A stretch of 64,000 nucleotides of DNA, taken from positions 4,843 through 68,842 of the forward strand of contig NZHT01000091.1 in assembly GCA_002691385.1 (NCBI GenBank). Direction: 5' to 3'. This document shows positions 24,378 to 53,155 of the stretch, in pieces. The notes under the pieces are model-generated. The model was not told the DNA's origin. It ran no database searches and saw nothing but the letters and a program-made list of their open reading frames with translations. How positions within the stretch are numbered: the first letter of the stretch is position 1; the number at the start of each line of letters is the position of its first letter. This DNA is from Flammeovirgaceae bacterium. Lineage in GTDB: Bacteria > Bacteroidota > Bacteroidia > Cytophagales > Cyclobacteriaceae. Both the position numbers and the translations under genes were made by a program.

Positions 24378-24379
24378 TA

Positions 24380-25726: not shown

Positions 25727-25734
25727 ACAACTAT

Positions 25735-27102: not shown

Positions 27103-27332
27103 TTTTTAATACCTTTTTTCTGCAGTCTTATCTTTTGCATTTTCAAAATTTCAAAGTGAAAATAATATTCTTGGTATCAATTGGAATCATAATTTCCACT
27201 TACAAAAATTTCTTAATTTTTAAGTTATTTAACTACTTAATGACTTGTGAATAAATTTTGATTTACACATTTTAATGCTGATGTGATAAATTTTGTAACT
27301 AATATCTTCTAAAAATTTTGATAATAAGTAAT

Positions 27333-27340
27333 TAAATTTG
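27333..27340 (+). promoter_or_regulatory. Candidate Bacteroidota -7 promoter element (TAAATTTG, matching TAnnTTTG) upstream of the ECF sigma gene
   Basis: Exact match to the TAnnTTTG consensus, read at 27333-27340, 23 nt before the TTG at 27363. The match is in AT-rich DNA and could arise by chance. Confidence 0.25.
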
Positions 27341-27362
27341 ATAATATAGAAAAAAGGTTTAT

Positions 27363-27926: not shown

Positions 27927-28039
27927 TATATCTGAGCTTAGCCGTATAAAATAAAACTCATACATGTCACAGATTATATCTAGTTGAATGTCTTAAATGT
28001 AAATTTCATATTTTAACTGAGATATCAAACATTGAAAAG

Positions 28040-29197: not shown

Positions 29198-29278
29198 ATA
29201 CAAAAAGTTATTGATATCAGACCATTATATACAACAATTCGATATGATTTTTATGCTATTAATCAGGAAAGTAATTAA

Positions 29279-34437: not shown

Positions 34438-35807
34438 TGGTGAAAAAGATAAAAATCATATTAGTTTTTTTAGTTCTTGGCTTTTTCATTAAATGCGGAG
34501 AGGAGACATTGAATGTTTCTAGAAGTCAACGTGCTGAAGAGGTGGGTACTGGAATTATTGAGGAAGTCGTAGATAAAAAAGGTATCGGTATGTCCTCTAA
34601 GCAGATTACTTGGTCAACAAGAGTAGGTCGATTAAAACCATTTTGGTATTATGCTTGGAACCGTGACCTAAAAGAAAATATTCCTGATAGTGTAGAGTTT
34701 GTTCCCATGTTTTGGGGAGCAAGTAGCGTTACCGATGATGCCATCGAGAACATGAAAGCACTTGCCGATGCGGGAAAAGTTAAATATATATTGGGCTTTA
34801 ATGAACCCGATCTAGAGAGTCAGGCAGACATGAGCGTAGATGAGGCGATTGCTTTATGGCCAAAACTTGAAAAAATAGGCGTTCCACTTGGAAGTCCAGC
34901 ACCTGCATTGATCAGCAACGGTTGGTTGGAAGAATTTATGAGTAAGGCAGTAGCTCAAAATCTGAGAGTTGATTTTGTTTGTCTTCACCTTTATAAGCAG
35001 AACAATCCTCAACTCTTTTTAGATGATGTCGATATTACCTTCGAGGCATATGGTAAACCCATTTGGATTACAGAAATGTCTGTAGTTGATGATCAAGCAG
35101 AAACAGTAGCAGACAATGAATTGACATATTCTGAGGTTTTAGGAACGATGAGGGCATTATTACCTGGGCTTTATTCCAGAGATCATGTAACTAGATTTGC
35201 TTGGTTTTCAGCAACAAAGGACTCTCCTAATTTTCCACGAAACGCATCTTCCATACTTTTTGATGAAGATGACAATTTAACAGAGCTTGGTGAGTATTAT
35301 TCGAGGTACAAACCAAACGCTGTAGCTGGTAGCGGCACTGATCCAATCATAGAAATTGTTGAAGAAGTTCCCGGAAATTTACTTCAAAATGGAACGTTTG
35401 AAACCGGACAAATCGATCCCTGGTTAGGATTTAAAAATGCAGTACTCACCGCTACCGTTCAAGAACCTAATACCGGAAATTATCTAGGAAGAATAGAACC
35501 ACATGATGGATCAATCTATCAGCTGATCACTGTTGAGCCGGGTAAAACCTACACGTTAAACTTTTTCCATAGATTTAAAACTACTCCACCAAATACTTTT
35601 AATGGAGTATTGAGAAATGAAGAGGGAGATAAAGCAAGATTTGTAGAATACTCAATTCCAATGACAGATGTTTGGACAGAGAATGCGATTGAATTCACAG
35701 TTCCAGAGGGTATTCAAACTGCGAGACTGGTATTTTATAAGCCTCAATTAGACCCTATGTTACCAACTTTCTTTTTAGACGATATTTCGATAATCAAAAA
35801 TCCTTAA
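34437..35807 (+). CDS. GH128-like (Pfam Glyco_hydro_cc type) glycoside hydrolase lipoprotein with a C-terminal CBM4/9-like domain
   Basis: 456 aa with lipobox FFIKCG. The clan GH-A-like catalytic core has WYYAWN, GFNEPD (putative acid/base Glu), FVCLHLY and PIWITEMSV (putative nucleophile Glu). The C-terminal segment NLLQNGTFETGQIDPW... is typical of CBM_4_9. The start overlaps the susD stop (TAATG). Confidence 0.7.
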   Translation: MVKKIKIILVFLVLGFFIKCGEETLNVSRSQRAEEVGTGIIEEVVDKKGIGMSSKQITWSTRVGRLKPFWYYAWNRDLKENIPDSVEFVPMFWGASSVTDDAIENMKALADAGKVKYILGFNEPDLESQADMSVDEAIALWPKLEKIGVPLGSPAPALISNGWLEEFMSKAVAQNLRVDFVCLHLYKQNNPQLFLDDVDITFEAYGKPIWITEMSVVDDQAETVADNELTYSEVLGTMRALLPGLYSRDHVTRFAWFSATKDSPNFPRNASSILFDEDDNLTELGEYYSRYKPNAVAGSGTDPIIEIVEEVPGNLLQNGTFETGQIDPWLGFKNAVLTATVQEPNTGNYLGRIEPHDGSIYQLITVEPGKTYTLNFFHRFKTTPPNTFNGVLRNEEGDKARFVEYSIPMTDVWTENAIEFTVPEGIQTARLVFYKPQLDPMLPTFFLDDISIIKNP

Positions 35808-35842
35808 TTTATATGCTTTTAACTAATGTAAACCCCAATGCT

Positions 35843-38800
35843 ATGAAAAAGATTTCCCTTTCCTTATTATTTTCTTTAATATCTATAATTGCTTTCAGTC
35901 AAAATAACTTCACCAACGGAGGTGGCGATCATCTTTGGTCGAATGCCGCCAACTGGTCCGGAAGTGTCCCAAATTCAGCTACCGCAAAAGTTGTTATTAA
36001 AAATGCATCTGTAATTGTTGATGGAAACTATACAGTTGGCCAATTTAAATTGCCCAATGCAAACGGAGGTGGTGTTGCGACGGTAACGGTGACCAATGCT
36101 AATAATGGGGTCTTAACGATTACGGGACAAGGAGTTACCCAACCTGTTCAACTAAATTTGAATGGACAAGATCTAATCTTTAATTGCCCTGTAGTGTTTG
36201 ATGCTACTGAAAATGAGACTGAAACTTTCAGATTTAATAGTGGAAATCAATCTATTACTTTTGGTGCGGGTCACACACTAACAGTAAATGACGAAATTAC
36301 ATTTACAGCTGTAAATCTAACGAGTGATCTGCATTTTAATGGCTCAACTGCGGGCAATGGAAATCTTAATTTTGGGGTAAAAACTGATGTATATTTTGGA
36401 TCAGGATATAATGGTTCCAATTACGGTGGAACACTACGTGTTGGTGGTGGTACGGGAAACAATGCTGTTGTTTTAACCTCTAACGTAGCTGACAATGGAA
36501 CTTTTCTCAAATCTGGTGGCTTGATCCAAGTTGATCAGCAGGGAGGTACTGTTAATGTAAATGGGGCCAACACATTAAAAGGAAATATTACTTTAACGGG
36601 TGCGAATAGTTTGACGTTAGATGTCAACAAAAATCAATCTGCCGTTGGCGTAATAACTATGGGAACCGGTACTTTAACCCTAGCCGTTGATGCTGCAGTT
36701 ACTTCTATTGCTTTTGCAGATGCTTCCGGTGCAACTTGGGGTAATGGTAGTGCGCTTGCAATAACTGGCGCTGCAGACAATGAAATTTCCTTTGGATCAG
36801 ATGCTAATGGTCTTACAAACGCACAACTTGCGCAGGTTACTTTAGCAGGGTCAACTCCAGCTATCGATGGATCAGGACAACTTGCTGCACCTTCAATTGT
36901 AGTTTCAACATTTAATAACGCTGGTGGAGACAATTTGTGGTCTAATGCTGGTAATTGGTCTGCTGGCATACCAACCGAGAATACAGCGAAAATTACTGTC
37001 GATGCAAATCTCATAGTTGATGCAAGCAAAACTATTGCCCAATTTATAATGGCAAGCTCAGCAGCCAGTACAGTAACCGTTACTGCTACCAATAATGCAA
37101 CTCTTACAATTACTGGAGTCGGTGTAACTCAGCCGATTCAAAACAACAAAAGTGGAGGAAATATCGTTTTTAATCTCCCAGTAGTTTTTGATTCATCTGA
37201 GGGGGCAACTGAAACTCTTAGAATGAATAGTGGTAACGATCAATCCGTTACTTTTGGTGCAAGTCATAGTCTGACACTCAATGATGAGCTTACTGTGACA
37301 GGTGTCAATACAAATCATGATTTAAATTTAAATGGAAATCTTTTAGGTGCGGGAAACTTGAAATTTGGGTCAAAAACCCAAGCTAATTTTGGATCTGGTT
37401 TCAATGGAGCTAATTACAACGGTAGTCTGGAAATTGCTGGCGGATCAGGTAATAATGCAGTTACAGCAATATCAAATGTAGCAGATGATGGAACATTTCT
37501 AAAGGCTGGTGGCGTAATTAATGTTACCCAAACCAATGGAACACTCACTATAAATGGAGCCAATACATTAAAAGGTAATATCGCTTTAAGTGTAGCTAAC
37601 ACGCTTGCGCTCAATATAAATAAAAATCAATCTGCAGTGGGTACAATTACTATGGGTAGTGGTACTTTAACATTGGCTGTTGATGCAGCAGTTACATCCA
37701 TTGCCTTTGCAGATAATTCTTCTGCTAGTTGGGGCACGGGAACTCTTGCCATTACTGGTGCTACAGATAATGAAGTAAAATTTGGAACTAACGCAAGTGG
37801 GGTTACTTCAGACCAGTTAGCCCAAATTACACTGGCAGGATCAGCAGTTCAAATTAATTCATCGGGACAAATCTCTCCCCTTTCAATTGTAGTTTCAACA
37901 TTCAACAATGGTGGCGGCGATAATTTGTGGTCCAATGCTGCTAATTGGTCTGCTGGCATACCAACCGAGAATACAGCGAAAATTACTGTCGATTCAAATC
38001 TCATCGTTGATGCAAGCAAAACTATTGCCCAATTTATAATGGCAAGCTCAGCAGCCAGTACAGTAACCGTTACTGCTACCAATAATGCAACGCTCACAAT
38101 TACTGGAGTCGGGGTAACCCAGCCTATTCAAAATAATAAGAATGGAGGAAATATCGTTTTTAATCTCCCAGTAGTTTTTGATTCATCTGAGGGGGCAACT
38201 GAAACTCTTAGAATGAATAGTGGTGGAGATCAATCCGTTACTTTTGGTGCAAGTCACAGTCTGACTCTCAATGATGAGCTTACTGTGACAGGTGTTAATA
38301 AAAATCATGATTTAAATTTGAATGGGAATCTTTTGGGTTCAGGAAACCTGAAATTTGGAGTAAAAACTCAAGCTAATTTCGGATCGGGTTTCAGTGGAGC
38401 CAATTATAACGGTAGTCTGGAAATTGCAGGCGGATCAAGTAATAATGAGGTTACAGTAATATCAAATGTAGCGGATGATGGAACATTTCTTAAAGCTGGT
38501 GGTGCAATCAACGTAACGCAGCCCGCTGGAACACTTACTATAAATGGAGCCAATACATTAAAAGGTAATATCGCTTTAAGTGGAGCCAACTCGCTTGCGC
38601 TCAATGTTAATAAAAATCAATCTGCAGTGGGTACAATTACTATGGGTAGTGGTACTTTAACATTGGCTGTTGATGCAGCAGTTACATCTATTGCCTTTGC
38701 AGATAATTCTTCTGCTGATTGGGGGACTGGAAAACTTGTCATCACAGGGGCAGGAGAAAACGAAGTGGCTTTTGGAACCAATGCTAACGGACTAACATCA

Positions 38801-41800
38801 AATCAGATATCTAGAATAACTCTTGCCGGATCAAATGTGCAAATAAATTCATCAGGTCAAATTAAAGCAAAGGAAATTGCAGAATCAACTTTTACCAATG
38901 GTGGGGGTGACCACCTCTGGTCAAATGAGGCTAACTGGTCCTCAGGGATACCTAATGTGACAACTGCTAAAGTTACTTTGAATGATTCACTAATTATTGA
39001 TACAAATGTTGAAATAGCCCAGATTAAACTAGCTGGAGGTTATGGCACAGCTACGGTTTCATCAACTATTTCGGCAAAGACTCTAACTCTGAACGGGTCA
39101 TTAGTTACACAACCTATCCAAAACAATAGTGCAGATGTAGACCTTCATATTAATATGAAGGTTATTCTAAGCTCTATAGATGTCGAAACAATTCAGGCTA
39201 GTGGGGGGGGGACTTGTAGTATTACATTTGGCTCTAGCTCAGATTTAACCTTAGGTCAAAATACAAAATTTCTTGCTCAAAACAATCGAGTTATACGCAT
39301 GAATGGAGTTTTACAAGGCTCAAAACAATTTCAAGTTGGTGCCGCATCAACAGTTATTTTTGGTTCAACTTCTAATAATTCCGGTTTTACTGGAGGATTC
39401 AAAATGCTCGGAAATAACAGTACTTTAACGGTAAATACTGCTGCAAATGGTACATTTTTGAAGTCAGCTGCTAGCATGTCACCCGATGTAAATTCAACAG
39501 GACACACCATAACAATAAATACTGCTAACGTTCTTAAGGGTAATATTTCAATATTGGGAAATCCTGTTGCTCTAAATATCAATGCCAATCAATCTGCTGT
39601 TGGTAAAATAACCATGACAACTGGGACACTAAATTTAGCTTTGGGCTCTGATGTTTCCTCTTTAGCATTTGCAAATAATTATTCATCAGATTGGGGTACT
39701 GGAACACTTGCTATCACAGGTTTTAAGGATAACGTTGTTTCATTTGGTAATGATGCTGGGGGACTTACCTCAAGCCAGATTTCTAAAATAAATATCGGAG
39801 GCGAAACAGTTTTAATTAATGATGCTGGACAGCTATACAATGCAAATCCACCAACTATTACAAGCGTTACATCATCAAGTAATGACGGAAGTTATAAATC
39901 AGGAGATGTAGTTGCATTAAATATTGTTTTCAGTGAAGCTGTAAATGTTAAAGGTACCCCTCAATTAACATTGGAAACAGGATCAACTGATGCTATTGTT
40001 GATTATAGCAGTGGATCAGGCAATGATACTCTTACTTTTAATTATACTGTAGCAGACGGACACAATTCCTCCGATCTAGATTATGTATCAACAGGATCTC
40101 TAACCTTGGCTAACCCCAATCCAAGTGCACCAGTATATGCTGATACTGATGGAAATGCTAGAGCCATTGCAATAAATGGCAATTATGCATATATAACTGA
40201 CGGGAATGAAGGTTTAGCGGTTGTGGATATTTCGAATCCTACAATCCCGGGTGCGGCTGTTTACGAAAATACCAATGGATATGCTAGCGGAATAGCAATC
40301 AAAGGGGATTATGCTTATTTGGCTGATGCACAAGCTGGTTTAGCAATAATAGATATATCTACGGCAATTAATCCGGGAACTCCTAGTTATGTAAATACTA
40401 GTGGAACTTCTTATGGGGTAGCAATTAGTGGTGATTATGCTTATATTGCAGATAATAATTCAGGTTTAGCAATAATAGATATTTCAAATCCTGCCAATCC
40501 GGGAACTCCTGTTTATAAAGACACTGATGGATTTGCATTCGGCGTAGCTATAAGAGGAAATTATGCTTATGTTGCCGATTATGATAAAGGATTGGCAATT
40601 ATTGACATATCAAATCCTTCAAATCCTGGTAATCCTGTTTATGAGGATACTGAGGGATATGCAGTTGGAGTAGCCGTTAGTGGTAACTATGCTTATGTTG
40701 CTGATGCACAAGCTGGTTTAGCCATAATAGATATTTCAAATCCTGCCAATCCTGGAACACCCATATATAAAGATACTGATGACTATGCCTCGGGAGTAAC
40801 TATTAACCGAAATTTTGCTTTTGTTAGTGACAGAACTTCGGGTCTGGCATTGATTGATATTACTAATCCAACTAGTCCTGGTACGCCTCAATATGAAGAT
40901 ACTGGAAACGCATGGAACACTGCAATTAAGGGTGATTATGCATATGTGGCCGATAACACTTCAGGTCTTGCAATAATTAAAACTAATATTAACAGCATTT
41001 TAGATCCCTTGGGAAATGCAGCTAACCTTAATCTACCTAGTCCAGGATCAAGTGGATCTTTAGGAGCAAATAAAGCTATTGTTATAGACAATATTAAACC
41101 AACGGTTACTTCAGTAAATTCCCCAACTTCGGATGATTCCTATAGAGAAGGAGATGTAATATCAATTAATGTTGTATTCAGTGAAAAAGTTAATGTCACT
41201 GGTACTCCACAATTAACGTTGGAGACGGGCTCAAGTGATGCCGTAGTTGATTATAGTAGTGGGACAGGTACGGCTACTTTATCTTTTACTTATACGGTTG
41301 CAACTGAGCACAGCAGTACAGATCTTAGCTATGTTGGCACAGAATCTCTCATATTGTCTGGAAGTAGTACCATAAAGGATGTTGTAGGAAATATAGCAAT
41401 ATTAACTCTCCCTAGCCCAGGAGCCAATGGATCATTGTCAGCTAATAATGAATTAATTATAGATAATACTCGACCCACTATGACCATTACTGCAGCTGAA
41501 GGAGGTGATGGTTTTACCTCAAATGATTCTATTTTATCCCTGACATTTACAAGTAGCGAGGCAACTACTAATTTTACTCTAGAGGATATTACAGCAACTG
41601 GTGGATCTCTGAGTGACTTTTCAATTGTGAGTAGTACAATATATACTGCTACTTTTACAGCATCAGGCCTTGGTAATATTACAATTGATGTGGCTACTGA
41701 GACCTTTACAGATTCTCCAGGTAATTTTAATTTAGCTGCTGATCAGTTTAACTATAATTATGATCCATCAGTGCTTACGATGACAATCACTGCGGCTGAA

Positions 41801-42901
41801 GGAGTTGATGGTTTCACATCTGAAGATAGTACGCTTTCTCTGACCTTTAATTCAAATAAAGCAACTAATGACTTTACCGTAGAAGATATCACTGTTACTG
41901 GAGGAAATATCACTGATTTTATTTCAGTAAATGATTCGGTATATACAGCTACATTTACCCCAACAAGTGAAGGAGAAGTTACAGTAGATGTCGCTGCTGG
42001 GGCTTTTTCGGATGTTGCAGGGAATCTCAATCTTGCCGCCTTGCAGTTTAATTGGACCTATGATATAAATTATGCTCCTATAATGTCAGATACTTTATTT
42101 ATAATACCTGAAAATAGCGAAAATGGTACGTTTGTTGGTATCGTTGAGGCCACAGATGTGGATGGAGATCCTTTAACTTTTGAGATTGCAACAGGAAATC
42201 CTAATAATGCCTTTAGCATAGTCTCAAGTACGGGAGTTGTTACAGTTACTAATAAGGAAATGCTAGATTATGAAATAAATCCATCGTTTGCCATAAAATT
42301 AGGTGTTTCGGATGGATTTCTGACTGATTCAGCTACATTAACGATAAACTTGTCAGACGTTCTTGAAAATCAACCACCAATAGTTTTATCTGATACCTTC
42401 ACAATAGCAGAAAATAGTATAAATGGAACATTAATTGGTATAATCCAAGCATCAGATGCTGATGATGACTCTTTAAGCTATCTCATCCTAGCTGGTAATA
42501 CTGATGATGCTTTCAGAATAGATGAAAATGGGGAACTAATTGTAGTGAATGAATCTGTCCTTGATTATGAAATCAATTCTTCTTTTCATCTGACAGTGCA
42601 AGTATATGATGGCCAAATTTTTACCGTTGCAACAATAGTAGTGAGATTAACCGATATTGATGAGTCACTCCTTTCAGTCGAGAAAATGATGGAAATGGTT
42701 TATCCGAATCCATCAAGTGGAATCATAAATATTAAGATGAATCAATTCAAAAAAGCTGATTTATATGATTTGTCTGGGGAAAAAGTATTTAGCTCGAGAG
42801 ATCTTCGCATGGATATTAGTTCTGTTGACAAAGGTATTTATTTGATTACCCTTGAAAGACAAGACGGAACTACTGCAGTTATTAAAATTATTAAAGAATA
42901 A
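35843..42901 (+). CDS. Giant T9SS-secreted surface protein. It has four ~330-aa beta-helix-like modules, an Ig-like domain, seven LVIVD repeats, an Ig-like domain, two Big-like domains, two cadherin domains and a T9SS C-terminal domain.
   Basis: The ORF is open from 35813. The preferred start is the ATG at 35843 (MKKISLSLLFSLISIIAFSQ signal peptide). The domain order was read from the translation. The tail VYPNPSSGIINIKM...GIYLITLERQDGTTAVIKIIKE matches the type A T9SS sorting domain pattern. Confidence 0.85.
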   Translation: MKKISLSLLFSLISIIAFSQNNFTNGGGDHLWSNAANWSGSVPNSATAKVVIKNASVIVDGNYTVGQFKLPNANGGGVATVTVTNANNGVLTITGQGVTQPVQLNLNGQDLIFNCPVVFDATENETETFRFNSGNQSITFGAGHTLTVNDEITFTAVNLTSDLHFNGSTAGNGNLNFGVKTDVYFGSGYNGSNYGGTLRVGGGTGNNAVVLTSNVADNGTFLKSGGLIQVDQQGGTVNVNGANTLKGNITLTGANSLTLDVNKNQSAVGVITMGTGTLTLAVDAAVTSIAFADASGATWGNGSALAITGAADNEISFGSDANGLTNAQLAQVTLAGSTPAIDGSGQLAAPSIVVSTFNNAGGDNLWSNAGNWSAGIPTENTAKITVDANLIVDASKTIAQFIMASSAASTVTVTATNNATLTITGVGVTQPIQNNKSGGNIVFNLPVVFDSSEGATETLRMNSGNDQSVTFGASHSLTLNDELTVTGVNTNHDLNLNGNLLGAGNLKFGSKTQANFGSGFNGANYNGSLEIAGGSGNNAVTAISNVADDGTFLKAGGVINVTQTNGTLTINGANTLKGNIALSVANTLALNINKNQSAVGTITMGSGTLTLAVDAAVTSIAFADNSSASWGTGTLAITGATDNEVKFGTNASGVTSDQLAQITLAGSAVQINSSGQISPLSIVVSTFNNGGGDNLWSNAANWSAGIPTENTAKITVDSNLIVDASKTIAQFIMASSAASTVTVTATNNATLTITGVGVTQPIQNNKNGGNIVFNLPVVFDSSEGATETLRMNSGGDQSVTFGASHSLTLNDELTVTGVNKNHDLNLNGNLLGSGNLKFGVKTQANFGSGFSGANYNGSLEIAGGSSNNEVTVISNVADDGTFLKAGGAINVTQPAGTLTINGANTLKGNIALSGANSLALNVNKNQSAVGTITMGSGTLTLAVDAAVTSIAFADNSSADWGTGKLVITGAGENEVAFGTNANGLTSNQISRITLAGSNVQINSSGQIKAKEIAESTFTNGGGDHLWSNEANWSSGIPNVTTAKVTLNDSLIIDTNVEIAQIKLAGGYGTATVSSTISAKTLTLNGSLVTQPIQNNSADVDLHINMKVILSSIDVETIQASGGGTCSITFGSSSDLTLGQNTKFLAQNNRVIRMNGVLQGSKQFQVGAASTVIFGSTSNNSGFTGGFKMLGNNSTLTVNTAANGTFLKSAASMSPDVNSTGHTITINTANVLKGNISILGNPVALNINANQSAVGKITMTTGTLNLALGSDVSSLAFANNYSSDWGTGTLAITGFKDNVVSFGNDAGGLTSSQISKINIGGETVLINDAGQLYNANPPTITSVTSSSNDGSYKSGDVVALNIVFSEAVNVKGTPQLTLETGSTDAIVDYSSGSGNDTLTFNYTVADGHNSSDLDYVSTGSLTLANPNPSAPVYADTDGNARAIAINGNYAYITDGNEGLAVVDISNPTIPGAAVYENTNGYASGIAIKGDYAYLADAQAGLAIIDISTAINPGTPSYVNTSGTSYGVAISGDYAYIADNNSGLAIIDISNPANPGTPVYKDTDGFAFGVAIRGNYAYVADYDKGLAIIDISNPSNPGNPVYEDTEGYAVGVAVSGNYAYVADAQAGLAIIDISNPANPGTPIYKDTDDYASGVTINRNFAFVSDRTSGLALIDITNPTSPGTPQYEDTGNAWNTAIKGDYAYVADNTSGLAIIKTNINSILDPLGNAANLNLPSPGSSGSLGANKAIVIDNIKPTVTSVNSPTSDDSYREGDVISINVVFSEKVNVTGTPQLTLETGSSDAVVDYSSGTGTATLSFTYTVATEHSSTDLSYVGTESLILSGSSTIKDVVGNIAILTLPSPGANGSLSANNELIIDNTRPTMTITAAEGGDGFTSNDSILSLTFTSSEATTNFTLEDITATGGSLSDFSIVSSTIYTATFTASGLGNITIDVATETFTDSPGNFNLAADQFNYNYDPSVLTMTITAAEGVDGFTSEDSTLSLTFNSNKATNDFTVEDITVTGGNITDFISVNDSVYTATFTPTSEGEVTVDVAAGAFSDVAGNLNLAALQFNWTYDINYAPIMSDTLFIIPENSENGTFVGIVEATDVDGDPLTFEIATGNPNNAFSIVSSTGVVTVTNKEMLDYEINPSFAIKLGVSDGFLTDSATLTINLSDVLENQPPIVLSDTFTIAENSINGTLIGIIQASDADDDSLSYLILAGNTDDAFRIDENGELIVVNESVLDYEINSSFHLTVQVYDGQIFTVATIVVRLTDIDESLLSVEKMMEMVYPNPSSGIINIKMNQFKKADLYDLSGEKVFSSRDLRMDISSVDKGIYLITLERQDGTTAVIKIIKE
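35903..39850 (+). repeat. Four tandem coding modules (A1-A4), period ~990 bp (~330 aa)
   Basis: Each module opens with F(T/N)NGGGD.LWSN..NWS.G.P....AK(V/I). Each closes with DWG.GTLAITG..DNE..FG...(N/G)GLT..Q...I.L.G....IN..GQ. Module starts were read at about 35903, 36901, 37891 and 38881. Confidence 0.85.
36901..38880 (+). repeat. Nearly identical 990-bp tandem duplication (modules A2 and A3)
   Basis: Line-by-line comparison at offset 990. For example, 37021-37080 is identical to 38011-38070, and 36961-37020 versus 37951-38010 has 2 mismatches in 60. Other aligned 60-mers differ at only a few positions. Confidence 0.85.
40110..40990 (+). repeat. Seven LVIVD repeats (~43 aa / 129 bp each), a predicted beta-propeller
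   Basis: The pattern G(N/D)YAY(V/I/L)AD...GLA(I/V)IDISNP.NPG.P.Y.DT.G.A.GVA recurs seven times in the translation. Confidence 0.75.
42668..42898 (+). other. T9SS C-terminal sorting domain of giant protein 1
   Basis: The last ~77 aa read YPNPSSGIINIKMNQFKKADLYDLSGEKVF...ISSVDKGIYLITL...IKIIKE. Confidence 0.75.
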
Positions 42902-43088
42902 ATAACTAATACCGGAAAAATGTTTTGAAAATTATTTTATAGCAGAAATTAATTTCACAATTATAAAAGTCGAGCGCTATTTCTTATTAAAGCTTTGATA
43001 ATGCGTTAGACTATCATTAATTAACTTCTTTTTGCTTGTGAAATTATGCTCAACAAATTTTTCAGATTATTGATTTTTTTTAAAAACT

Positions 43089-46000
43089 ATGCCAAATATG
43101 GAATCCTTAGTGGTTAAAAAAATATTTTCATTTTTCAGAATACTTTTAATTCCAGTTCTCGGTTTTACTCAAAATACTACCTTTAATAACAATGGAGGTG
43201 ATAATTTATGGTCGAATAATGCTAATTGGTCTAATGGTATAGCAAATGAAGCTACTGCAAAAGTTACATTGAATGCCGATGCCATACTAGACTTAAGTGT
43301 GACGGTCGCACAAATAAAAATAGCTAGTAGTGGACCAAGTAATGTAACTCTTACCAATCGATCTGAAGCTACACTTACAATTACCGGAAATGGTGTAACT
43401 CAGCCTATACAGATTAATAAGAATACAACTAAGCTGACATTTAATTTACCAGTTGTTTTTGATTCGTCTGAAGATGCTCTTGAAACTATGCGTTTCAACA
43501 GTGGCAATATTATTATAACATTTGGAGCTGGGCATAGCTTGACTTTGATTGATAAACTATTAGTTACCGCTGTTAATAATAATAATACGTTAAATGTTGA
43601 TGGAAGTCTATTAGGTTCAGCAAACTTTAATTTTGGTGCCAAGTGTAATGTATTTTTTGGTTCGGAATCAAATAATTCATCCTACACAGGAAGTATAAGA
43701 CCAACGGCTGTTGATGTAGAAATCACAGCAAACACATCTGATAATGGCACTTTTATTAAATCTGGAGCTGCAATCGATATTCAAAATACAGGTGCTATAA
43801 TTACAATTAATGGATCGAATACATTAAAAGGTAACATCTTGGTTGGAGATAATAATCCCTCACTTAATATAAATGCAAATCAAAATAGTGTCGGTTTGAT
43901 CACAATTGGAGGTGGCACTTTAAACTTAGCTTTAGCTGATGATGTAAATTCGATGGCATTTGTCGATAACTCATTCTCTGATTGGGGTACTGGAACCCTT
44001 TCGATTACCGGTGCTGGAGATAATGAAGTTTCTTTTGGTACGGATGCTAATGGTATCACTTCGGCACAACTTTCTAAAATTACCCTTTCAGGTTCTAGTG
44101 TGGAAATAAATTCAGAGGGAAAATTATCCATCACTGGATCAAATGATGGTAGTCTAGTATCAGAATCAACTTTTACAAATGGTGGGGGAAATAATCTTTG
44201 GTCCAATACATCCAATTGGTCAGCCGGTATTCCTAATATTTTAACGGCTAAAGTTACTCTTGAAGCCTCAGTTATTGTTGATTCAAATGTAGAAATTGCA
44301 CAGATAAAACTTGGTGGTACTGCCAGCTCAAATGTGGTTGTATCCTCTTTGAATTCATCCATTCTTACCATTAACGGATCTGGAGTTACACAACCGATTC
44401 AAAATAATAAGGCAGATTTAGATTTAAATATAAATTTGGCTACAGTTCTTTCCTCATTAGAAGTCGAAATAATCCAAATAAGTGGTGGTGGTAGTTCTAG
44501 TATAACATTCGGTTCTAGCTCAGACTTGACCTTAAATTCAAATACTAAATTTATAGCACAAAATGATAGAAGATTTACCTTTGAAGGTATTCTTAAAGGT
44601 TCTGGTCAATTTATGCTCGGGACAGCATCAACGGCTAATTTTGGTTCGAATTCTGATAATACTCAACATACTGGAGGATTTAAAATGCTTGGAAACAATG
44701 GCAAAATTAATGTTAATACCCAAGCAGATGGGACATTTTTGACCCCGGGTGCCACCATAGCCCCTGATGCGAGTTCAATAGGGCATAATATTACCGTGAA
44801 TGCAGCAAATGTATTGAAAGGAAATATTTCAGTTTTAAGTAATCCATTGAATCTTAATATTAATGCGAATCAATCAGGTATTGGCATAATTACTATGACC
44901 AGTGGAATACTAAATCTGGTAGTTGCGCCTGATGTTACATTGGTAAGTTTTGTAGATAATTCATCTGCAGATTGGGGTGCAGGAACTCTTGCTATTACTG
45001 GTGCTGGAGAAAATGAAGTTGCGTTTGGAACAAATGCTAATGGATTAACATCTAGTCAAATTTCTCAGACGTCTATTTCAGGCTCGTTAGTTGAAATTAA
45101 CTCACAAGGACAATTATCTATATCAGAGGAAATATTAGATAAAAAAGGGATTGCAATGTCCTATAAAGAAGCTACCTGGCCGACAAGAATAAGTCGCTTG
45201 AAACCATTTTGGCACTACTCCTGGAATCGAGATATGAGGGAACAAATTCCAGATAGCGTGGAATTTGTTCCTATGTTTTGGGGTGCCGGAAGTGTTACTA
45301 ATGATGAAATATTAAGAATTAAAGGCCTTGCTGATGCCGGAAAGGTAAAATATGTTTTAGGATTCAATGAACCAGATCTTGAAAGTCAAGCCAATATGAC
45401 TATTGATGAGGCTATAGCTTTATGGCCTAAACTAGAAGAAATTGGGGTTCCTCTTGGAAGCCCTGTTCCGGCAGGACTTAATAATGGTTGGTTGGAGGAA
45501 TTTATGAAAAAAGCGAATGCCAATAATCTAAGAGTGGATTTTGTATGTATACATTTATACAGGGAAAACGATGCTCAGATTTTTCTGGATGCTGTAGATC
45601 AAACTTATCAAAAATATGGGAAACCTATTTGGATTACAGAAATGTCTGTTAAGGATAAACAAGCACAAACAGTAGCTGAAAACAGATTTTCAATGACTGA
45701 AGTTTTAGAGACAATGAAAATACTACTTCCTGAATTGTACAATCGGGAGTATCTTTCAAGATTTGCTTGGTTTACAGCTACTCGAGATTCACCTAATTAT
45801 CCAGGAAACTCATCATCAGTTCTTTATGATGAAAGTGATAACATAACAATTCTTGGCGAATATTATGCTGAATTCAAAGCTAACCCAGCATTCAAAGCGA
45901 AAGACATATCTGAGTCCACTTTTACAAATGCAGGGGGAGACAAGCTTTGGTCAAACTCAGCCAACTGGTCCGACGGAGTACCTAATGTTTCAAGTGCTAA

Positions 46001-49000
46001 GGTTACATTAAATGATTCAATAATAATTGATTCAGATGTTTCTATTAGTCAAATGAAAATGGCTAATGGCTTCGGCAGTGCGATGATATCCTCTTCAAAT
46101 TCATCTGCTCTAACGCTCAATGGAATAGGAGTAACCCAAATAATTCAAAATAATGGAACTGATGTAGATTTACAATTCAATCTAGATGTGGTTATATCTT
46201 CCTCAGATATAGAATCAATTCAGACAAATGGTAGTGGGAAATGTAGTATCACCTTTGGGCCCATTTCCGATTTGACATTAAAATCTATTACTAAATTCGC
46301 AGCTCAAGAAAATAAAAGTATAAATCTGAATGGAGTTTTACAGGGTGAGGGGCAATTTCAAATTGGGGCATCATCGAGTGTTAACTTTGGATCTACCTCT
46401 GATAATAAGTCTTTTACTGGAGGTTTTAAATTTCTAGGGAATAATAGTTTATTGGAAATAAATACAGCTAAAGACAGTACTTTTTTGAAGTCAGAAACTT
46501 TTATATCAACTGATGAAAATTCAACTGGACATAGTATAAATGTGAATTCTGCAAATGTATTGAAGGGTAATATTTCGGTCGATGGTAATAATTTGGTTCT
46601 CAATATTAATGCCAATCAAACGGGCTTAGGAACAATCAATATGGTAAGTGGAACTTTGGATTTGAATTTGGATTCAAGTATAACAGCTTTAATATTTGCT
46701 GATAATTCATCTGCGGATTGGGGTACCGGAACTATTGAAATAACGGGTGCGGGGGATAATGTAATAGGCTTTGGAACCAATTCTAATGGACTTTCAACAA
46801 AACAAATCTCACAGATAGAGATGGATAATCGAGCCGTAACTATTAATTCACTTGGCCAAATTTCGGCAAGTGGATCAGTTCAAGTAATTCAATCAACTTT
46901 CACCAATGCAGGAGGAGATAATCTTTGGTCTAATGCCGATAATTGGTCATCTGGAATACCTAATGTTCAAAATGCAAAAGTTACTTTAAATGAATCATTG
47001 ATATTGGATATGAATGTAACCATAGGTCAAATTAAAATGACTGCGGGATTTGGATCATTATCAATAACTACTAATAATGATGCTGTCCTTAAAATATCTG
47101 GTGATGGAGTAACCCAGCCTATTCAAAATAATGCTGGTAATTTAGAATTCGTTATAGATATTCCAGTTGTCATAGAGTCCATTGATTCACTTGCTGAAAT
47201 ATTTTTTCCTACGGTTCCTGGAGGAATAATAACCTTTGGATCAAATTCATCTTTGCAGCTAAATTCAGATATTACTGTGAACGCGAACAAAAATGCACAA
47301 AAATCGTTTAATTTTAATGGTACACTTTTCGGTTTAGGTAATTTTCAATTAGATGCAGGCACTGTTGTAAATTTTGGTGCAACCTCTGACAATTCAGCCT
47401 TTAATGGAAATTTTGTTTTATTAAAGGATAATGGAGAATTGGTGTCAAATATTACCGATAACGGAATATTTCTACCCACGGGAAGTTCCATTTTAGCAAA
47501 TGGTTCAGGGGGTAGTATCACTGTAAACGGAATTAATACTTTTAATGGGAATATCATTCTCTCTGCAAATGACATTGCGCTAAATATTAATGCAAACCAA
47601 TCCTCAATGGGTCTAATTTTAATTGGAGATTCGCTTAAGACTGACGATGTTAGTTTAGAATTGTCAATAATTAATTCCGTATCAGAGCTTCAATTCAAAG
47701 ATAATTCTATGTCTAATTGGGATAATTTATCCTTAAATATCATTGGTTTTAATGATAATGTAATTGCCTTTGGCACTGACTTTAATGGTCTTACAGTAGC
47801 ACAACTATCTAAAATTGATGTGGGGGGGCCGAGTGTGATAATTAATTCCTCAGGCCAACTAGAGGCAGAAGGAGAAATACCAATTAAATTATCAACCTTT
47901 AATAACGCTGGAGGGGATATGCTTTGGTCTAATCCGGTTAATTGGTCTTCTGGAATCCCAAATGATTCGAGCGCTAAAGTTATTTTAAATGCTTCAGTAA
48001 TAATAGATGTAGATGTCAACATTGCTCAAATGAAATTACAAGGTGGGTTTGGAGATGTGGAAGTCACGGGTAATGAATCCTCTAAATTAAATTTGACAGG
48101 TATTGGGGTAAATTCAATTATTCAAAACAATGGGAGCGATGTAGATCTTATGTTTGACTTGCCTATTGTCATTTCATCAACGGATGTAATTGAGAATATT
48201 CAGACAAATGCTGGAGGTATTTGTAGTATAACGTTTGGCTCGAATTCGAACATCAGTTTAAATTCAAATGTTAAATTCTCCGCCTCGAATGATAGAAAAA
48301 TAAATATGAATGGAATTCTAAATGGATCAGGACAATTTCAAATTGGAACATCTTCAACGATTAATTTTGGTTCATCATCAGACAATGATGCATTCTTGGG
48401 AGGATTTAAAATACTTGGTAATAATAGTCAATTGATAGTTAATACGGACTCAAGTGCTACTTTTTTAAAATCTGGGGTTGAAATAATGATTGATTCAGGT
48501 TCAAACGGGCACAGTGTAACTTTAAATGGTGAGAATGTTTTTTTTGGAGATCTTGCAATTTTAGATAGTCCTTTTAATTTAAATGTAAATGCCAATCAAT
48601 CAGGGATGGGGATAATTACAATGAGTAGTGGTATTTTAAGTTTAATTTTAAACGATTCTATTTCTACATTGGCATTTGCTAATAATTCATCTGCGGAATG
48701 GGGTGATGGAACATTATCGATTAGTGGTTTTGAGGATAATATAATTTCATTTGGAAATGATTTTAGTGGATTAAGTTTAGAACAAATAAAACAAATAAAT
48801 CACGAAGGGGAAGATGTTATAATTAATGAATTTGGGTATTTAATTAATGCAGATTATTCGGAAAATGATCACATTACAGGAATAAATAAAAAGAAAAAAG
48901 AGCAGATATTCTTCCCTAATCCAAACAGTTCTGTCTCTCTAAAATATTCATTTAAAAATTATATTAGGAGTAACGTTATTATATGTGATTTAGAGGGTAA

Positions 49001-49136
49001 AAGTTATATTCATTTTACATCTAATGAAAATTCCGGAGAAATTGATATTTCACAATTATCTCCTGGAGTTTATGTAATAATGGTTCAGGACAATAAGGGT
49101 GAAACCATAGATTCAAGATTGTTCATCAGAAGATGA
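43089..49136 (+). CDS. Giant T9SS-secreted multimodular protein. It has five ~325-aa beta-helix-like modules, an internal GH128-like catalytic domain and a T9SS C-terminal domain.
   Basis: 2015 aa with a signal peptide (IFSFFRILLIPVLGFTQ). Modules B1-B5 share the same start and end motifs as gene 1. The catalytic domain lies between B2 and B3. The tail FFPNPNSSVSLKYS...LSPGVYVIMVQDNKGETIDSRLFIRR is T9SS CTD-like. Confidence 0.85.
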   Translation: MPNMESLVVKKIFSFFRILLIPVLGFTQNTTFNNNGGDNLWSNNANWSNGIANEATAKVTLNADAILDLSVTVAQIKIASSGPSNVTLTNRSEATLTITGNGVTQPIQINKNTTKLTFNLPVVFDSSEDALETMRFNSGNIIITFGAGHSLTLIDKLLVTAVNNNNTLNVDGSLLGSANFNFGAKCNVFFGSESNNSSYTGSIRPTAVDVEITANTSDNGTFIKSGAAIDIQNTGAIITINGSNTLKGNILVGDNNPSLNINANQNSVGLITIGGGTLNLALADDVNSMAFVDNSFSDWGTGTLSITGAGDNEVSFGTDANGITSAQLSKITLSGSSVEINSEGKLSITGSNDGSLVSESTFTNGGGNNLWSNTSNWSAGIPNILTAKVTLEASVIVDSNVEIAQIKLGGTASSNVVVSSLNSSILTINGSGVTQPIQNNKADLDLNINLATVLSSLEVEIIQISGGGSSSITFGSSSDLTLNSNTKFIAQNDRRFTFEGILKGSGQFMLGTASTANFGSNSDNTQHTGGFKMLGNNGKINVNTQADGTFLTPGATIAPDASSIGHNITVNAANVLKGNISVLSNPLNLNINANQSGIGIITMTSGILNLVVAPDVTLVSFVDNSSADWGAGTLAITGAGENEVAFGTNANGLTSSQISQTSISGSLVEINSQGQLSISEEILDKKGIAMSYKEATWPTRISRLKPFWHYSWNRDMREQIPDSVEFVPMFWGAGSVTNDEILRIKGLADAGKVKYVLGFNEPDLESQANMTIDEAIALWPKLEEIGVPLGSPVPAGLNNGWLEEFMKKANANNLRVDFVCIHLYRENDAQIFLDAVDQTYQKYGKPIWITEMSVKDKQAQTVAENRFSMTEVLETMKILLPELYNREYLSRFAWFTATRDSPNYPGNSSSVLYDESDNITILGEYYAEFKANPAFKAKDISESTFTNAGGDKLWSNSANWSDGVPNVSSAKVTLNDSIIIDSDVSISQMKMANGFGSAMISSSNSSALTLNGIGVTQIIQNNGTDVDLQFNLDVVISSSDIESIQTNGSGKCSITFGPISDLTLKSITKFAAQENKSINLNGVLQGEGQFQIGASSSVNFGSTSDNKSFTGGFKFLGNNSLLEINTAKDSTFLKSETFISTDENSTGHSINVNSANVLKGNISVDGNNLVLNINANQTGLGTINMVSGTLDLNLDSSITALIFADNSSADWGTGTIEITGAGDNVIGFGTNSNGLSTKQISQIEMDNRAVTINSLGQISASGSVQVIQSTFTNAGGDNLWSNADNWSSGIPNVQNAKVTLNESLILDMNVTIGQIKMTAGFGSLSITTNNDAVLKISGDGVTQPIQNNAGNLEFVIDIPVVIESIDSLAEIFFPTVPGGIITFGSNSSLQLNSDITVNANKNAQKSFNFNGTLFGLGNFQLDAGTVVNFGATSDNSAFNGNFVLLKDNGELVSNITDNGIFLPTGSSILANGSGGSITVNGINTFNGNIILSANDIALNINANQSSMGLILIGDSLKTDDVSLELSIINSVSELQFKDNSMSNWDNLSLNIIGFNDNVIAFGTDFNGLTVAQLSKIDVGGPSVIINSSGQLEAEGEIPIKLSTFNNAGGDMLWSNPVNWSSGIPNDSSAKVILNASVIIDVDVNIAQMKLQGGFGDVEVTGNESSKLNLTGIGVNSIIQNNGSDVDLMFDLPIVISSTDVIENIQTNAGGICSITFGSNSNISLNSNVKFSASNDRKINMNGILNGSGQFQIGTSSTINFGSSSDNDAFLGGFKILGNNSQLIVNTDSSATFLKSGVEIMIDSGSNGHSVTLNGENVFFGDLAILDSPFNLNVNANQSGMGIITMSSGILSLILNDSISTLAFANNSSAEWGDGTLSISGFEDNIISFGNDFSGLSLEQIKQINHEGEDVIINEFGYLINADYSENDHITGINKKKKEQIFFPNPNSSVSLKYSFKNYIRSNVIICDLEGKSYIHFTSNENSGEIDISQLSPGVYVIMVQDNKGETIDSRLFIRR
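43170..45130 (+). repeat. Modules B1 and B2 of the ~325-aa repeat family
   Basis: B1 starts TFNNNGGDNLWSNNANWSNGIANEATAKVTL (about 43170). B2 starts ESTFTNGGGNNLWSNTSNWSAGIPNILTAKVTL (about 44163) and ends ...LTSSQISQTSISGSLVEINSQGQLSIS. Confidence 0.8.
45131..45900 (+). other. Embedded GH128-like catalytic domain, paralogue of the product of 34437-35807
   Basis: The translation reads KGIAMSYKEATWPTRISRLKPFWHYSWNRDM...GFNEPDLESQ...FVCIHLY...GKPIWITEMSV...ILGEYY. It aligns by eye along its full length with the lipoprotein enzyme, with roughly two-thirds of residues identical. Both putative catalytic Glu motifs are retained. Confidence 0.75.
45911..48840 (+). repeat. Modules B3, B4 and B5 of the ~325-aa repeat family
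   Basis: Module starts were read at about 45911 (ESTFTNAGGDKLWSNSANWSDGVPN), 46892 (STFTNAGGDNLWSNADNWSSGIPN) and 47891 (STFNNAGGDMLWSNPVNWSSGIPN). Confidence 0.8.
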
Positions 49137-53099: not shown

Positions 53100-53155
53100 A
53101 CTTGATTAGCTGTAAAATAAAATCTAAAGTATTCTTTAAAATAATTATTCAGATT

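What the first reader, a model, noticed from the sequence alone, without database searches (positions are those of the whole stretch)
35843..49136. Nine copies of a ~325-330 aa module spread over two adjacent giant T9SS cargo genes inside a PUL
Seen in sequence: the two largest genes (2362 and 2015 aa) sit next to each other. Together they hold nine copies of one long module, A1-A4 and B1-B5.

Each module starts with F(T/N)N.GGD.LWSN..NWS.G.P....AK(V/I)(T/V). It has central segments such as GVTQPIQNN, FGS.S.N, GTFLK and N.LKGNI......LN(I/V)N.NQS..G.ITM..G.L.L. It ends with DWG.GTL.ITG...N...FG.....GL(T/S)..Q...I.....V.IN..GQ(L/I).

Two subtypes are visible. Type I is A1-A3 and B1, with VVFDSSE..ETLR.NSG. 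Type II is A4, B2, B3 and B5, with GGG.CSITFGSSSDLTL and GGFKMLGNN; B4 is a divergent type II. Both proteins run type I then type II.

Established knowledge: the GNI/NT..G and NW motifs, and the closing FG...GLT..QL..I motif, resemble autotransporter-associated beta-strand (PATR) units. Those units are best known from Verrucomicrobia and Planctomycetes and form parallel beta-helices. YPNP...-type tails direct T9SS secretion and surface attachment in Bacteroidota.

Inference: these proteins are long, rigid, cell-surface beta-helical stalks. Each would be several hundred residues of helix per module. They would present enzyme or binding domains away from the outer membrane as part of glycan capture. 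I do not know of such an architecture being described as a PUL component.
Basis: partly seen in the sequence, partly recalled or inferred. Interest (0 to 1): 0.8.

Follow-up and report, generated by a model that had tools for sequence, protein, structure and literature searches.

The report
Unannotated surface beta-solenoid module, nine copies
Two neighbouring giant secreted proteins in a marine bacterium's sugar-harvesting gene cluster carry nine copies of a roughly 320-residue, all-beta domain that no database names; its relatives sit in similar nutrient-uptake clusters in two bacterial phyla, so it is probably a new kind of surface binding or adhesion module.

Summary
Gene A (35813-42901) holds four copies and gene B (43089-49136) five copies of a 314-325 aa module.

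Both proteins end in a T9SS type A sorting domain. They lie in a PUL with an ECF sigma/anti-sigma pair, SusC, SusD, GH128-CBM4, GH3 and six sulfatases.

The module matches no Pfam, NCBIfam or PDB sequence. AlphaFold2 folds it confidently (pLDDT 95.8, pTM 0.92) as an all-beta domain of short strands. Its only structural neighbours are beta-helices (Ag43, TibA, tailspikes, PL6), and none of those matches is significant.

It is a distant relative of PATR-type passengers, not a PATR member. hhalign gives 95 % probability over the C-terminal third, and both end motifs are shared.

A profile search finds 866 representative relatives. Among the best 150, most are a signal peptide, one module and a sorting tail (T9SS CTD or PEP-CTERM), with the module at the N-terminus. 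It is therefore an autonomous, distal unit rather than a spacer.

Relatives recur beside SusC/D, sulfatases and GH128 or GH110-like genes, in Bacteroidota and in loci with PVC-type features.

My best reading is a non-catalytic binding or adhesion module, with unknown ligand. This is a new family within a known kind.

The parts
35813..42901 (+). Gene A (2362 aa; probable true start at 35843). Order: signal peptide, modules A1-A4, Ig-like repeat, seven LVIVD repeats, Ig-like repeat, 2 Big_12, 2 cadherin-like, T9SS CTD. NCBI MAJ51589.1 'hypothetical protein'.
35909..36883 (+). Module A1 (type I), aa 33-357
36911..37873 (+). Module A2 (type I), aa 367-687; 90 % aa and 88 % nt identical to A3
37901..38863 (+). 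Module A3 (type I), aa 697-1017
   Evidence: AF2 two-module model
38891..39835 (+). Module A4 (type II), aa 1027-1341; this is the module modelled (pLDDT 95.8, pTM 0.92)
40109..40987 (+). LVIVD repeat region of gene A (seven repeats, PF08309 E 2.3e-75)
41471..42070 (+). Two Big_12 Ig-like domains of gene A
42065..42643 (+). Two cadherin-like domains of gene A
42698..42898 (+). T9SS type A C-terminal sorting domain of gene A
   Evidence: PF18962 38.4 bits (cut-off 27); TIGR04183 32 bits (cut-off 23)
43089..49136 (+). Gene B (2015 aa). Order: signal peptide, B1, B2, GH128 catalytic domain, B3, B4, B5, T9SS CTD. NCBI MAJ51590.1 'hypothetical protein'.
43182..44126 (+). Module B1 (type I), aa 32-346
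44172..45116 (+). Module B2 (type II), aa 362-676
45189..45866 (+). GH128 (PF11790) catalytic domain inserted between B2 and B3. It is 70 % identical to the GH128 of the upstream gene. The NEP and TE motifs are kept.
45921..46862 (+). Module B3 (type II), aa 945-1258
46899..47861 (+). Module B4 (divergent, with a 6-aa insertion), aa 1271-1591
47898..48842 (+). Module B5 (type II), aa 1604-1918
48912..49133 (+). T9SS type A C-terminal sorting domain of gene B
   Evidence: PF18962 35.5 bits; TIGR04183 35.4 bits
27363..29197 (+). ECF sigma factor (27363-27926) and FecR-type anti-sigma factor (28040-29197)
29279..34437 (+). SusC-like TonB-dependent transporter with STN domain (29279-32695) and SusD-like protein (32692-34437)
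34437..35807 (+). GH128 + CBM4_9 protein with a lipoprotein-type signal (...FFIKC), ending 5 nt upstream of gene A
49187..51490 (+). GH3 glycosidase
51453..54577 (.). Two sulfatases (51453-53099 +, 53156-54577 -)
20597..27102 (.). Upstream part of the locus: SASA-like esterase (20597-22660 +) and three sulfatases (22569-24377 +, 24368-25726 +, 25735-27102 -)

Best explanation
Each of the nine units is a complete, independently folding, all-beta solenoid-type domain of about 320 residues. Each has its own N-terminal motif (GGD.LWSN..NWS.G.P) and its own C-terminal motif (FG...GLT..QL..I....IN..GQL).

The domain belongs to an unannotated family distantly related to PATR-type, autotransporter-passenger-like beta-helices. 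Its members are exported and fixed to the cell surface by a C-terminal sorting tail: T9SS CTD in Bacteroidota, PEP-CTERM elsewhere. That places the module at the far end of the protein.

I infer that the module is a non-catalytic binding or adhesion unit of TonB-dependent nutrient-capture loci. In this PUL it has been multiplied to 4 + 5 copies.
- In gene B, the copies would act like tandem carbohydrate-binding modules around a GH128 beta-1,3-glucanase.
- In gene A, they would form a multivalent tip on an LVIVD / Ig / cadherin stem.
- Together they would hold a polymer or polymer-rich particle at the surface next to SusCD.

Shown: the repeat, the predicted fold class, the sorting tails, the N-terminal position, the family size and the recurrent gene neighbourhood.

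Inferred: surface display, binding, and the identity of the ligand, which is unknown.
For: - Repeat and boundaries.
- No known family or solved relative by sequence.
- Fold: AF2 pLDDT 95.8, pTM 0.92, about 28 short strands. The weak Foldseek lists are almost all beta-helix adhesins and enzymes.
- PATR-superfamily link: hhalign 95.4 % probability, E 2e-8.
- Autonomy and distal position: 866 representatives at E <= 1e-3. Of the 122 with a full module among the best 150, 108 have one module, 113 start within 45 aa of the N-terminus, 70 carry a T9SS CTD and 19 a PEP-CTERM tail. Larger relatives place Ig, cadherin, Calx-beta or LTD domains between the module and the CTD.
- Neighbourhood in Bacteroidota: of the 29 Bacteroidota loci with a module match, 20 have a sulfatase match and 16 a SusC or SusD match within 10 kb. 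In Kordia the single-module gene directly follows susD.
- Neighbourhood in loci with PVC-type features: the PEP-CTERM relatives lie beside two sulfatases and an ECF sigma gene. In the locus that could be read downstream, Beta_helix and GH110-like genes follow. The PVC-type and Kordia module proteins are 39 % identical.
- CBM-like placement around an apparently intact GH128.
- No catalytic-looking conserved residues over 161 modules.
Against: - Nothing shows binding.
- The module is poor in the residues usual for glycan binding (W 0.9 %, Y 0.3 %, R 0.5 %, K 3 %). It is net acidic, which argues against electrostatic binding of sulfated polymers.
- Conserved positions are core-type residues (F, W, N, G, Q, L, I), so no conserved surface site is evident.
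- Some relatives lie in loci without sulfatases or CAZymes. These hold a TonB receptor, DUF5689, LTD / Calx-beta and Exo_endo_phos genes. The ligand, if any, is therefore not uniform.
- The loci compared are not phylogenetically independent. Several are orthologous, and I made no formal enrichment test.
- Foldseek gives no significant superposition (TM <= 0.36), so the exact solenoid geometry is unverified.
Confidence: 0.45

Rival explanations
1. Passive spacer or stalk. The modules only add length, roughly 4-6 nm each if they are solenoids of 8-12 coils. This would hold the GH128, LVIVD and cadherin-like domains away from the outer membrane or through a capsule layer.
For: - All-beta, elongated-type fold.
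- Short linkers of 9-15 aa that the two-module model places in strands at pLDDT about 85-92.
- Conserved residues are all core-type.
- In gene B, three modules lie between the GH128 domain and the CTD.
Against: - In gene A all four modules are distal to the other domains, so they cannot be lifting them.
- In 108 of 122 relatives there is a single module, and most of those proteins are under 500 aa, little more than the module and a sorting tail. In 113 of 122 the first module starts within 45 aa of the N-terminus.
- Relatives use Ig, cadherin or Calx-beta domains as the proximal part.
- The two-module pTM of 0.64 does not support a rigid rod.
Confidence: 0.2
2. Self-associating or general adhesin. 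Like Ag43 or TibA-type beta-helix passengers, the modules would mediate cell-cell aggregation or attachment to algal or particle surfaces, without recognising the PUL's glycan.
For: - The best (non-significant) structural neighbours are Ag43, TibA, SepA, pertactin and RsaA.
- Homology to part of a PATR-type passenger.
- Partner domains are adhesin-like: cadherin, Calx-beta, LTD.
- PEP-CTERM proteins are linked to exopolysaccharide and floc systems (established knowledge).
- Some relatives lie in loci without CAZymes.
Against: - The tight and recurrent placement inside substrate-specific loci, and the insertion of a GH128 between modules, point to a role tied to the substrate.
- The structural matches are not significant (E >= 0.09).
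Confidence: 0.2
3. An unrecognised enzyme family (a glycoside hydrolase, lyase or esterase with a beta-helix fold) acting on sulfated algal polysaccharide.
For: - Beta-helix folds are common among polysaccharide lyases and hydrolases. The weak Foldseek lists include PL6, GH28, CE8, GH110 and FdlA.
- The genes sit with sulfatases and other Beta_helix proteins.
Against: - Over 161 modules, the only well-conserved ionisable residue is one Asp (D37, 84 %). A second Asp (D7) reaches 71 %. No conserved Glu, His, Lys or Arg, and no strongly conserved acid pair, is present.
- Nine tandem copies of a catalytic domain would be unusual.
- There are no significant structural matches to any enzyme.
Confidence: 0.1

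Closest known systems
PATR (PF12951 / TIGR02601) 'autotransporter-associated beta strand repeat' proteins of Verrucomicrobiota and Planctomycetota, many with PEP-CTERM tails
   Same: - The N-terminal W...NWS..NWS.G.P motif directly after the signal peptide.
- One coil (ITVNGANTLKGNI) that aligns with a PATR unit.
- The closing F.D.S..W..G.L.I.G....FG...GLT..QL.QI motif.
- hhalign 95.4 % probability over module positions 195-318.
- Some family members also end in PEP-CTERM.
   Different: - The PF12951 model matches none of the nine modules nor the 20 relatives tested, even at E <= 10.
- The first two thirds of the module have no detectable counterpart.
- Here a whole unit, from N-terminal motif to C-terminal motif, is reiterated as a cassette, and it is attached through T9SS.
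Self-associating autotransporter passengers (Ag43, TibA) and other beta-helix adhesins
   Same: All-beta solenoid-like prediction. These are the top-ranked, though non-significant, Foldseek neighbours. They are surface display proteins.
   Different: No significant structural or sequence match (E >= 0.09, TM <= 0.3). There is no type V translocator. Secretion and anchoring use a T9SS CTD or PEP-CTERM.
PUL-encoded surface glycan-binding proteins (SusE/F-like SGBPs) and tandem CBMs of multimodular CAZymes
   Same: Gene position directly downstream of susD in Kordia, and next to SusCD here. Non-catalytic appearance. Tandem copies flank a catalytic GH128 domain.
   Different: SGBPs are lipoproteins built of Ig-like or CBM beta-sandwiches. 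These proteins have a type I-like signal peptide, a T9SS CTD and a solenoid-type domain. Glycan binding is untested, and the module is poor in aromatic and basic residues.
'GH128 plus sulfatases' PUL noted in Polaribacter clade 3-b (PMC7242417)
   Same: GH128, sulfatases and SusCD together in marine Bacteroidota.
   Different: The passages read do not mention any repeat module or giant T9SS proteins. The substrate of that PUL type is unknown.

Membership tests
PATR repeat (Pfam PF12951) | Sequence match to the PF12951 model at or above its gathering score | tested here: not met
   No hit in genes A or B at E <= 0.01, and none in the 29 module sequences at E <= 10. Control: P0215, P0219 and P0220 do hit PF12951.
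PATR-type beta-helix passenger superfamily (remote homology) | Profile-level homology to a PATR-bearing protein, including its end motifs | tested here: met
   hhalign A2 against P0215: 95.4 % probability, E 2e-8, 118 columns, covering the PATR unit at aa 547-575 and the C-terminal motif. The N-terminal motif is shared by eye. Only the C-terminal third is covered.
Right-handed parallel beta-helix fold | Predicted structure superposes on solved beta-helices with significant scores | tested here: inconclusive
   AF2 model pLDDT 95.8, about 28 short strands. The Foldseek lists are dominated by beta-helices, but the best values are E 0.8 (one module) and 0.09 (two modules), with TM <= 0.36. Coordinates could not be inspected. 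No regular coil period appears in the sequence.
T9SS type A cargo | C-terminal sorting domain matching TIGR04183 / PF18962 above cut-off | tested here: met
   Gene A: 32 bits (TIGR04183) and 38.4 bits (PF18962). Gene B: 35.4 and 35.5 bits. The cut-offs are 23 and 27.
T9SS type A cargo | Actual secretion and attachment to the cell surface | not testable with these tools
   Needs a secretome or surface proteome and a T9SS mutant.
Polysaccharide utilization locus | Adjacent susC-like and susD-like genes with CAZymes on the same strand | tested here: met
   SusC 29279-32695, SusD 32692-34437, GH128-CBM4, genes A and B, and GH3 lie on one strand with gaps from -4 to 187 nt. An ECF sigma / anti-sigma pair lies upstream and six sulfatases flank the locus.
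GH128 (domain inside gene B) | Match to PF11790 and to solved GH128 structures, with clan GH-A catalytic motifs | tested here: met
   PF11790 E 6.4e-47. PDB 6UAQ E 2.4e-32, with the FNEPD and WITE motifs aligned. Activity was not tested.
SusE/F-like surface glycan-binding protein | Lipoprotein signal (Cys lipobox) | tested here: not met
   The N-termini of A and B lack a lipobox Cys (...IIAFS|QNN and ...VLGFT|QNT). Anchoring is by CTD instead.
SusE/F-like surface glycan-binding protein | Binds the PUL's glycan | not testable with these tools
   Needs binding assays.

The most novel reading that the evidence does not exclude
The module defines a previously unrecognised class of surface proteins. 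These would be conserved accessory components of sulfated-polysaccharide and other macromolecule capture loci in both Bacteroidota (T9SS-anchored) and bacteria with PVC-type features (PEP-CTERM-anchored).

On this reading it is a beta-solenoid counterpart of SusE/F-type SGBPs or CBMs, with its own way of recognising ligands. The 4 + 5 arrays here would be a multivalent capture device built around a GH128.
Probability: 0.35. Interest if true: 0.7.

Novelty: new variant of a known kind. Interest (0 to 1): 0.55.

Why it matters
Marine Bacteroidota recycle much of the algal polysaccharide pool, and many PUL genes are still 'hypothetical'.

This module is one of them. It has no model in Pfam or NCBIfam and no solved relative. 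Yet there are 866 representative clusters, and it recurs next to SusCD, sulfatases, GH128 and GH110-like genes. In the window and in the cultured strains looked up, the proteins are annotated only as 'hypothetical protein' or 'T9SS type A sorting domain-containing protein'.

If it binds substrate, it would add a new, non-lipoprotein, solenoid-type class to the known surface glycan-binding proteins. It would also give a marker for a set of PULs whose substrates are unknown. Several cultured carriers (Kordia periserrulae DSM 25731, Litoribaculum gwangyangense, Gaetbulibacter spp.) make this directly testable.

If it is only an adhesin or a spacer, the finding still supplies a domain definition for annotation.

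Tried and rejected
- Pfam and NCBIfam scans of both proteins, of 29 modules at E <= 10, and of distant relatives found no family for the module.
- The PDB sequence-profile search found nothing below E 2.
- Foldseek of the one-module model against PDB and BFVD, and of the two-module model against PDB, gave no match at E <= 0.001.
- Tests for internal periodicity found little. hhalign self-comparison gave only a weak offset of about 57 residues (E 0.004). Hydrophobicity autocorrelation showed only the period of 2 typical of strands.
- The exact-sequence contig look-up for gene B found nothing. The cluster look-up did find it.
It worked with the nine-module alignment.
- The promoter and terminator scan of 27000-46000 was at background level, and no terminator was seen in the 187-nt gap between genes A and B. 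That scanner models sigma-70 promoters, not Bacteroidota promoters.
- Six literature searches (PEP-CTERM, PATR, T9SS, SGBP, GH128, sulfatase) found no description of this module.
- I considered and rejected a catalytic role, because no conserved acid/base residues exist.
- I considered and rejected one continuous helix across modules, because each module has its own end motifs and the two-module pTM is 0.64.

Full report
**1. The observation**

The window holds two adjacent + strand ORFs: gene A (35813-42901, 2362 aa) and gene B (43089-49136, 2015 aa).

The motif F[TN]N.GG[DN].LWSN occurs exactly nine times, four in A and five in B. Cutting at this motif and at the closing IN..GQL motif gives nine units of 314-325 aa. 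They align end to end with 54 invariant columns and pairwise identities of 38-90 %.

- A1-A3 and B1 form one group (52-90 %).
- A4, B2, B3 and B5 form a second group (52-63 %).
- B4 is equidistant from all the others (42-47 %).

A2 and A3 are 88 % identical in DNA. Synonymous codon differences outnumber non-synonymous ones by 64 to 31. This indicates a recent duplication kept under purifying selection.

Units are joined by 9-15 residue linkers, except that a 268-residue segment separates B2 from B3.

The cluster look-up identifies the window as a MAG labelled Flammeovirgaceae bacterium. There the two genes are MAJ51589.1 and MAJ51590.1, both 'hypothetical protein'. Two near-identical 2012-aa proteins, each on its own ENA contig, share gene B's 90 % identity cluster, which argues against an assembly artefact.

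**2. The rest of the two proteins and the locus**

Beyond its modules, gene A carries:
- seven LVIVD repeats (E 2.3e-75);
- two Big_12 domains;
- two cadherin-like domains;
- a T9SS type A sorting domain.

Gene B carries a GH128 catalytic core (PF11790, E 6.4e-47) between B2 and B3, plus a T9SS sorting domain. The GH128 domain matches solved GH128 structures (6UAQ, E 2.4e-32) with the NEP and TE motifs aligned. It is 70 % identical to the GH128 of the gene immediately upstream, which also has a CBM4_9 domain and a lipoprotein-type signal.

On the same strand, tightly packed, lie an ECF sigma factor, a FecR-type anti-sigma factor, SusC (with an STN domain), SusD, GH128-CBM4, gene A, gene B, GH3 and a sulfatase. 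Five more sulfatases and a SASA-like esterase flank them.

A PUL type combining GH128 with sulfatases has been noted in Polaribacter, but the passages I read make no mention of such proteins (PMC7242417).

**3. What the module is**

No Pfam or NCBIfam model matches it:
- not in genes A and B;
- not in 29 diverse module sequences at E <= 10;
- not in distant relatives.

A profile search of PDB sequences finds nothing.

With a 29-sequence alignment, AlphaFold2 gives a very confident model of A4: pLDDT 95.8, pTM 0.92. It consists of about 28 short strands plus brief helical turns in the N-terminal and C-terminal motifs.

Foldseek finds no significant neighbour in PDB or BFVD (best E 0.4-0.8, TM <= 0.36). 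The weak lists consist almost wholly of beta-helices: TibA, Ag43, Hbp, the MpAFP antifreeze domain, tailspikes, pectin methylesterases, PL6 and GH110.

I therefore call the fold a beta-solenoid-type domain. I mark the exact geometry as unverified, because I could not inspect coordinates. The sequence shows only the period of 2 typical of strands, and no regular coil length.

**4. Relation to PATR**

A search seeded with PEP-CTERM relatives picked up PF12951-bearing proteins at weak scores.

hhalign of the module profile against one of them (P0215) gives 95.4 % probability and E 2e-8 over module positions 195-318. The aligned stretch covers that protein's Pfam PATR unit (aa 547-575). It also covers a shared closing motif: F.D.S..W..G.L.I.G....FG..GLT..QL.QI...G.....G.L. 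P0215 also begins with VSWTGAVDNNWSTAGNWSGGTP, the same N-terminal motif.

So each module corresponds to a complete small passenger of the PATR-type superfamily, from N-terminal motif to C-terminal motif. The family-defining model does not match, however, and the first two thirds of the module have no detected counterpart.

**5. The family**

An exhaustive profile search of 1.84 billion representatives finds 866 proteins at E <= 1e-3 and 134 at E <= 1e-30.

Among the best 150, 122 contain a full module. Of these 122:
- 108 have one module, 12 have two and 2 have three;
- in 113 the first module starts within 45 residues of the N-terminus, directly after a signal peptide;
- single-module proteins have a median length of 440 aa;
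- the tails are T9SS CTD (70), PEP-CTERM (19; the model was confirmed on three relatives) or a third '...FYRV' type (6).

Larger relatives add Big_9, cadherin-like, Calx-beta, LTD or TSP3 domains between the N-terminal module and the CTD.

The 4- and 5-copy arrays in this window, and the 3-4 copy arrays in related SAGs and MAGs (L001, L006-L008), are thus expansions of a unit that normally works alone.

**6. Gene neighbourhood of relatives**

A scan of one genome per species gave 36 loci. I compared them by tblastn with the window's PUL proteins.

- *Uncultured 'Marinoscillum' genomes.* The module genes lie beside orthologues of the same SusC (about 69 %), SusD (about 76 %) and GH128-CBM4 (about 65 %).
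- *More distant genera.* These are Labilibacter, Polaribacter, Kordia, Litoribaculum, Flavobacterium, Gaetbulibacter, Aestuariivivens, Psychroflexus, Seonamhaeicola and a Saprospiraceae MAG. Here single-module genes lie within 10 kb of sulfatases and mostly of SusC/D.
- *Kordia periserrulae.* The 439-aa module protein directly follows susD. Two Beta_helix proteins and sulfatases follow it, and a GH110-like gene lies upstream. Polaribacter and Litoribaculum show the same set.
- *Two PEP-CTERM relatives.* They lie in loci with PVC-type neighbours (DUF1559/SBP_bac_10), next to two sulfatases and an ECF sigma gene. In the one locus that extends downstream, Beta_helix proteins and a GH110-like gene follow. 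The module proteins of Kordia and this locus are 39 % identical over 333 residues, and the GH110-like proteins 32 %.
- *Two other relatives.* They lie in a locus with a TonB-dependent receptor, DUF5689, an LTD / Calx-beta T9SS protein, Exo_endo_phos proteins and a SusC/D-like pair, without sulfatases.

The common denominator is therefore outer-membrane nutrient-capture loci, most often sulfatase-rich ones. These loci are not independent samples, and I did not run a formal enrichment test.

**7. How it most likely works**

T9SS type A cargo is attached to the cell surface through its C-terminus (established knowledge), and PEP-CTERM is likewise C-terminal. The module is therefore the distal end of these proteins, and in most relatives it is the only passenger. 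That is hard to reconcile with a mere stalk. It suggests a function of its own.

Over 161 modules the conserved positions are W10, S11, N15, W16, F113, N138, G139, F157, N210, N213, N231, Q234, F260, W268, F285, G286 and Q296, plus a single well-conserved Asp (D37). This is a structural core, not a catalytic set.

The position after susD, the flanking of a GH128 domain in gene B, and the tandem multiplication all resemble SGBPs and CBMs. I therefore favour a non-catalytic binding or adhesion role (confidence 0.45).

Points against this reading:
- the module is poor in W, Y, R and K;
- it is net acidic;
- no binding site can be pointed to;
- the ligand is unknown.

The rivals are a pure spacer (0.2), a general or self-associating adhesin like Ag43 (0.2) and an unrecognised enzyme (0.1).

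On rigidity, the two-module model keeps high local confidence (pLDDT 92.9) and places the linker in strands. But pTM falls to 0.64. A rigid rod is neither shown nor excluded.

**8. Verdict**

- The T9SS, PUL, solenoid-type fold and remote PATR kinship readings hold.
- PATR membership and the stalk role do not.

The module is an unannotated domain family of moderate size. It shows a recurrent association with polysaccharide-capture loci that extends to loci with PVC-type features. The literature I could search does not describe it.

I rate it a new variant of a known kind (beta-helix surface proteins), with interest 0.55.

Noticed in passing
relatives P0054, P0080, P0113, P0124, P0161, P0163, P0165 (C-termini): A third conserved C-terminal tail, '...LV.GPW......G.GG....T......FYRV', takes the place of the T9SS CTD or PEP-CTERM in some family members. 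It matches no Pfam or NCBIfam model and may be another sorting or anchoring signal.
   Followed up: partly
L037 10001-19014 and L039 (metagenome contigs); L015, L016, L017: Module protein, GH110-like / Beta_helix genes and sulfatases occur together both in a locus with PVC-type features (PEP-CTERM, DUF1559 neighbours; L037) and in Flavobacteriaceae (T9SS, SusCD). L039 ends right after the module gene, so only its sulfatases and sigma gene are seen. The module proteins are 39 % identical across the two settings.
   Followed up: partly
L040 and L041: Module genes also occur in a locus with a TonB-dependent receptor, DUF5689, an LTD / Calx-beta T9SS protein and Exo_endo_phos proteins, without sulfatases. 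This may be a nucleic-acid or phosphate-scavenging locus.
   Followed up: no
window 39848-40132 and 41099-41383 (gene A aa 1346-1440 and 1763-1857): Two mutually similar Ig-like segments of about 90 aa flank the LVIVD repeat region. Neither has a Pfam hit.
   Followed up: no
P0020 aa ~60-135 and P0021 aa ~100-195: A cupredoxin-like stretch (YYY.C..H..M.G.I) lies before or inside the module in two relatives. This was seen by eye only.
   Followed up: no
window 54634-55845 (-): A 402-aa ORF next to the sulfatases has no Pfam hit at E <= 0.001.
   Followed up: no
window 8118-10295 (-): Fused trehalose-6-phosphate synthase / phosphatase (GT20 + Trehalose_PPase).
   Followed up: no
window 56990-63317 (-): Cus-like RND efflux operon: a membrane-fusion protein with a heavy-metal-binding domain, an outer-membrane factor and an AcrB-type pump.
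   Followed up: no
L009 4924-6126 and L013 ~13126-13599: In two related loci, a separate protein downstream of the module gene carries a CBM4_9-like region 56-59 % identical to that of the GH128-CBM4 protein.
   Followed up: partly
L033 9896-12847, L034 9914-12973: Planctomycetota and Phycisphaeraceae proteins share only the N-terminal TF.N.GGD.LW.N.ANWS motif directly after the signal peptide and then diverge. The motif looks like a widespread N-terminal element of surface proteins.
   Followed up: partly
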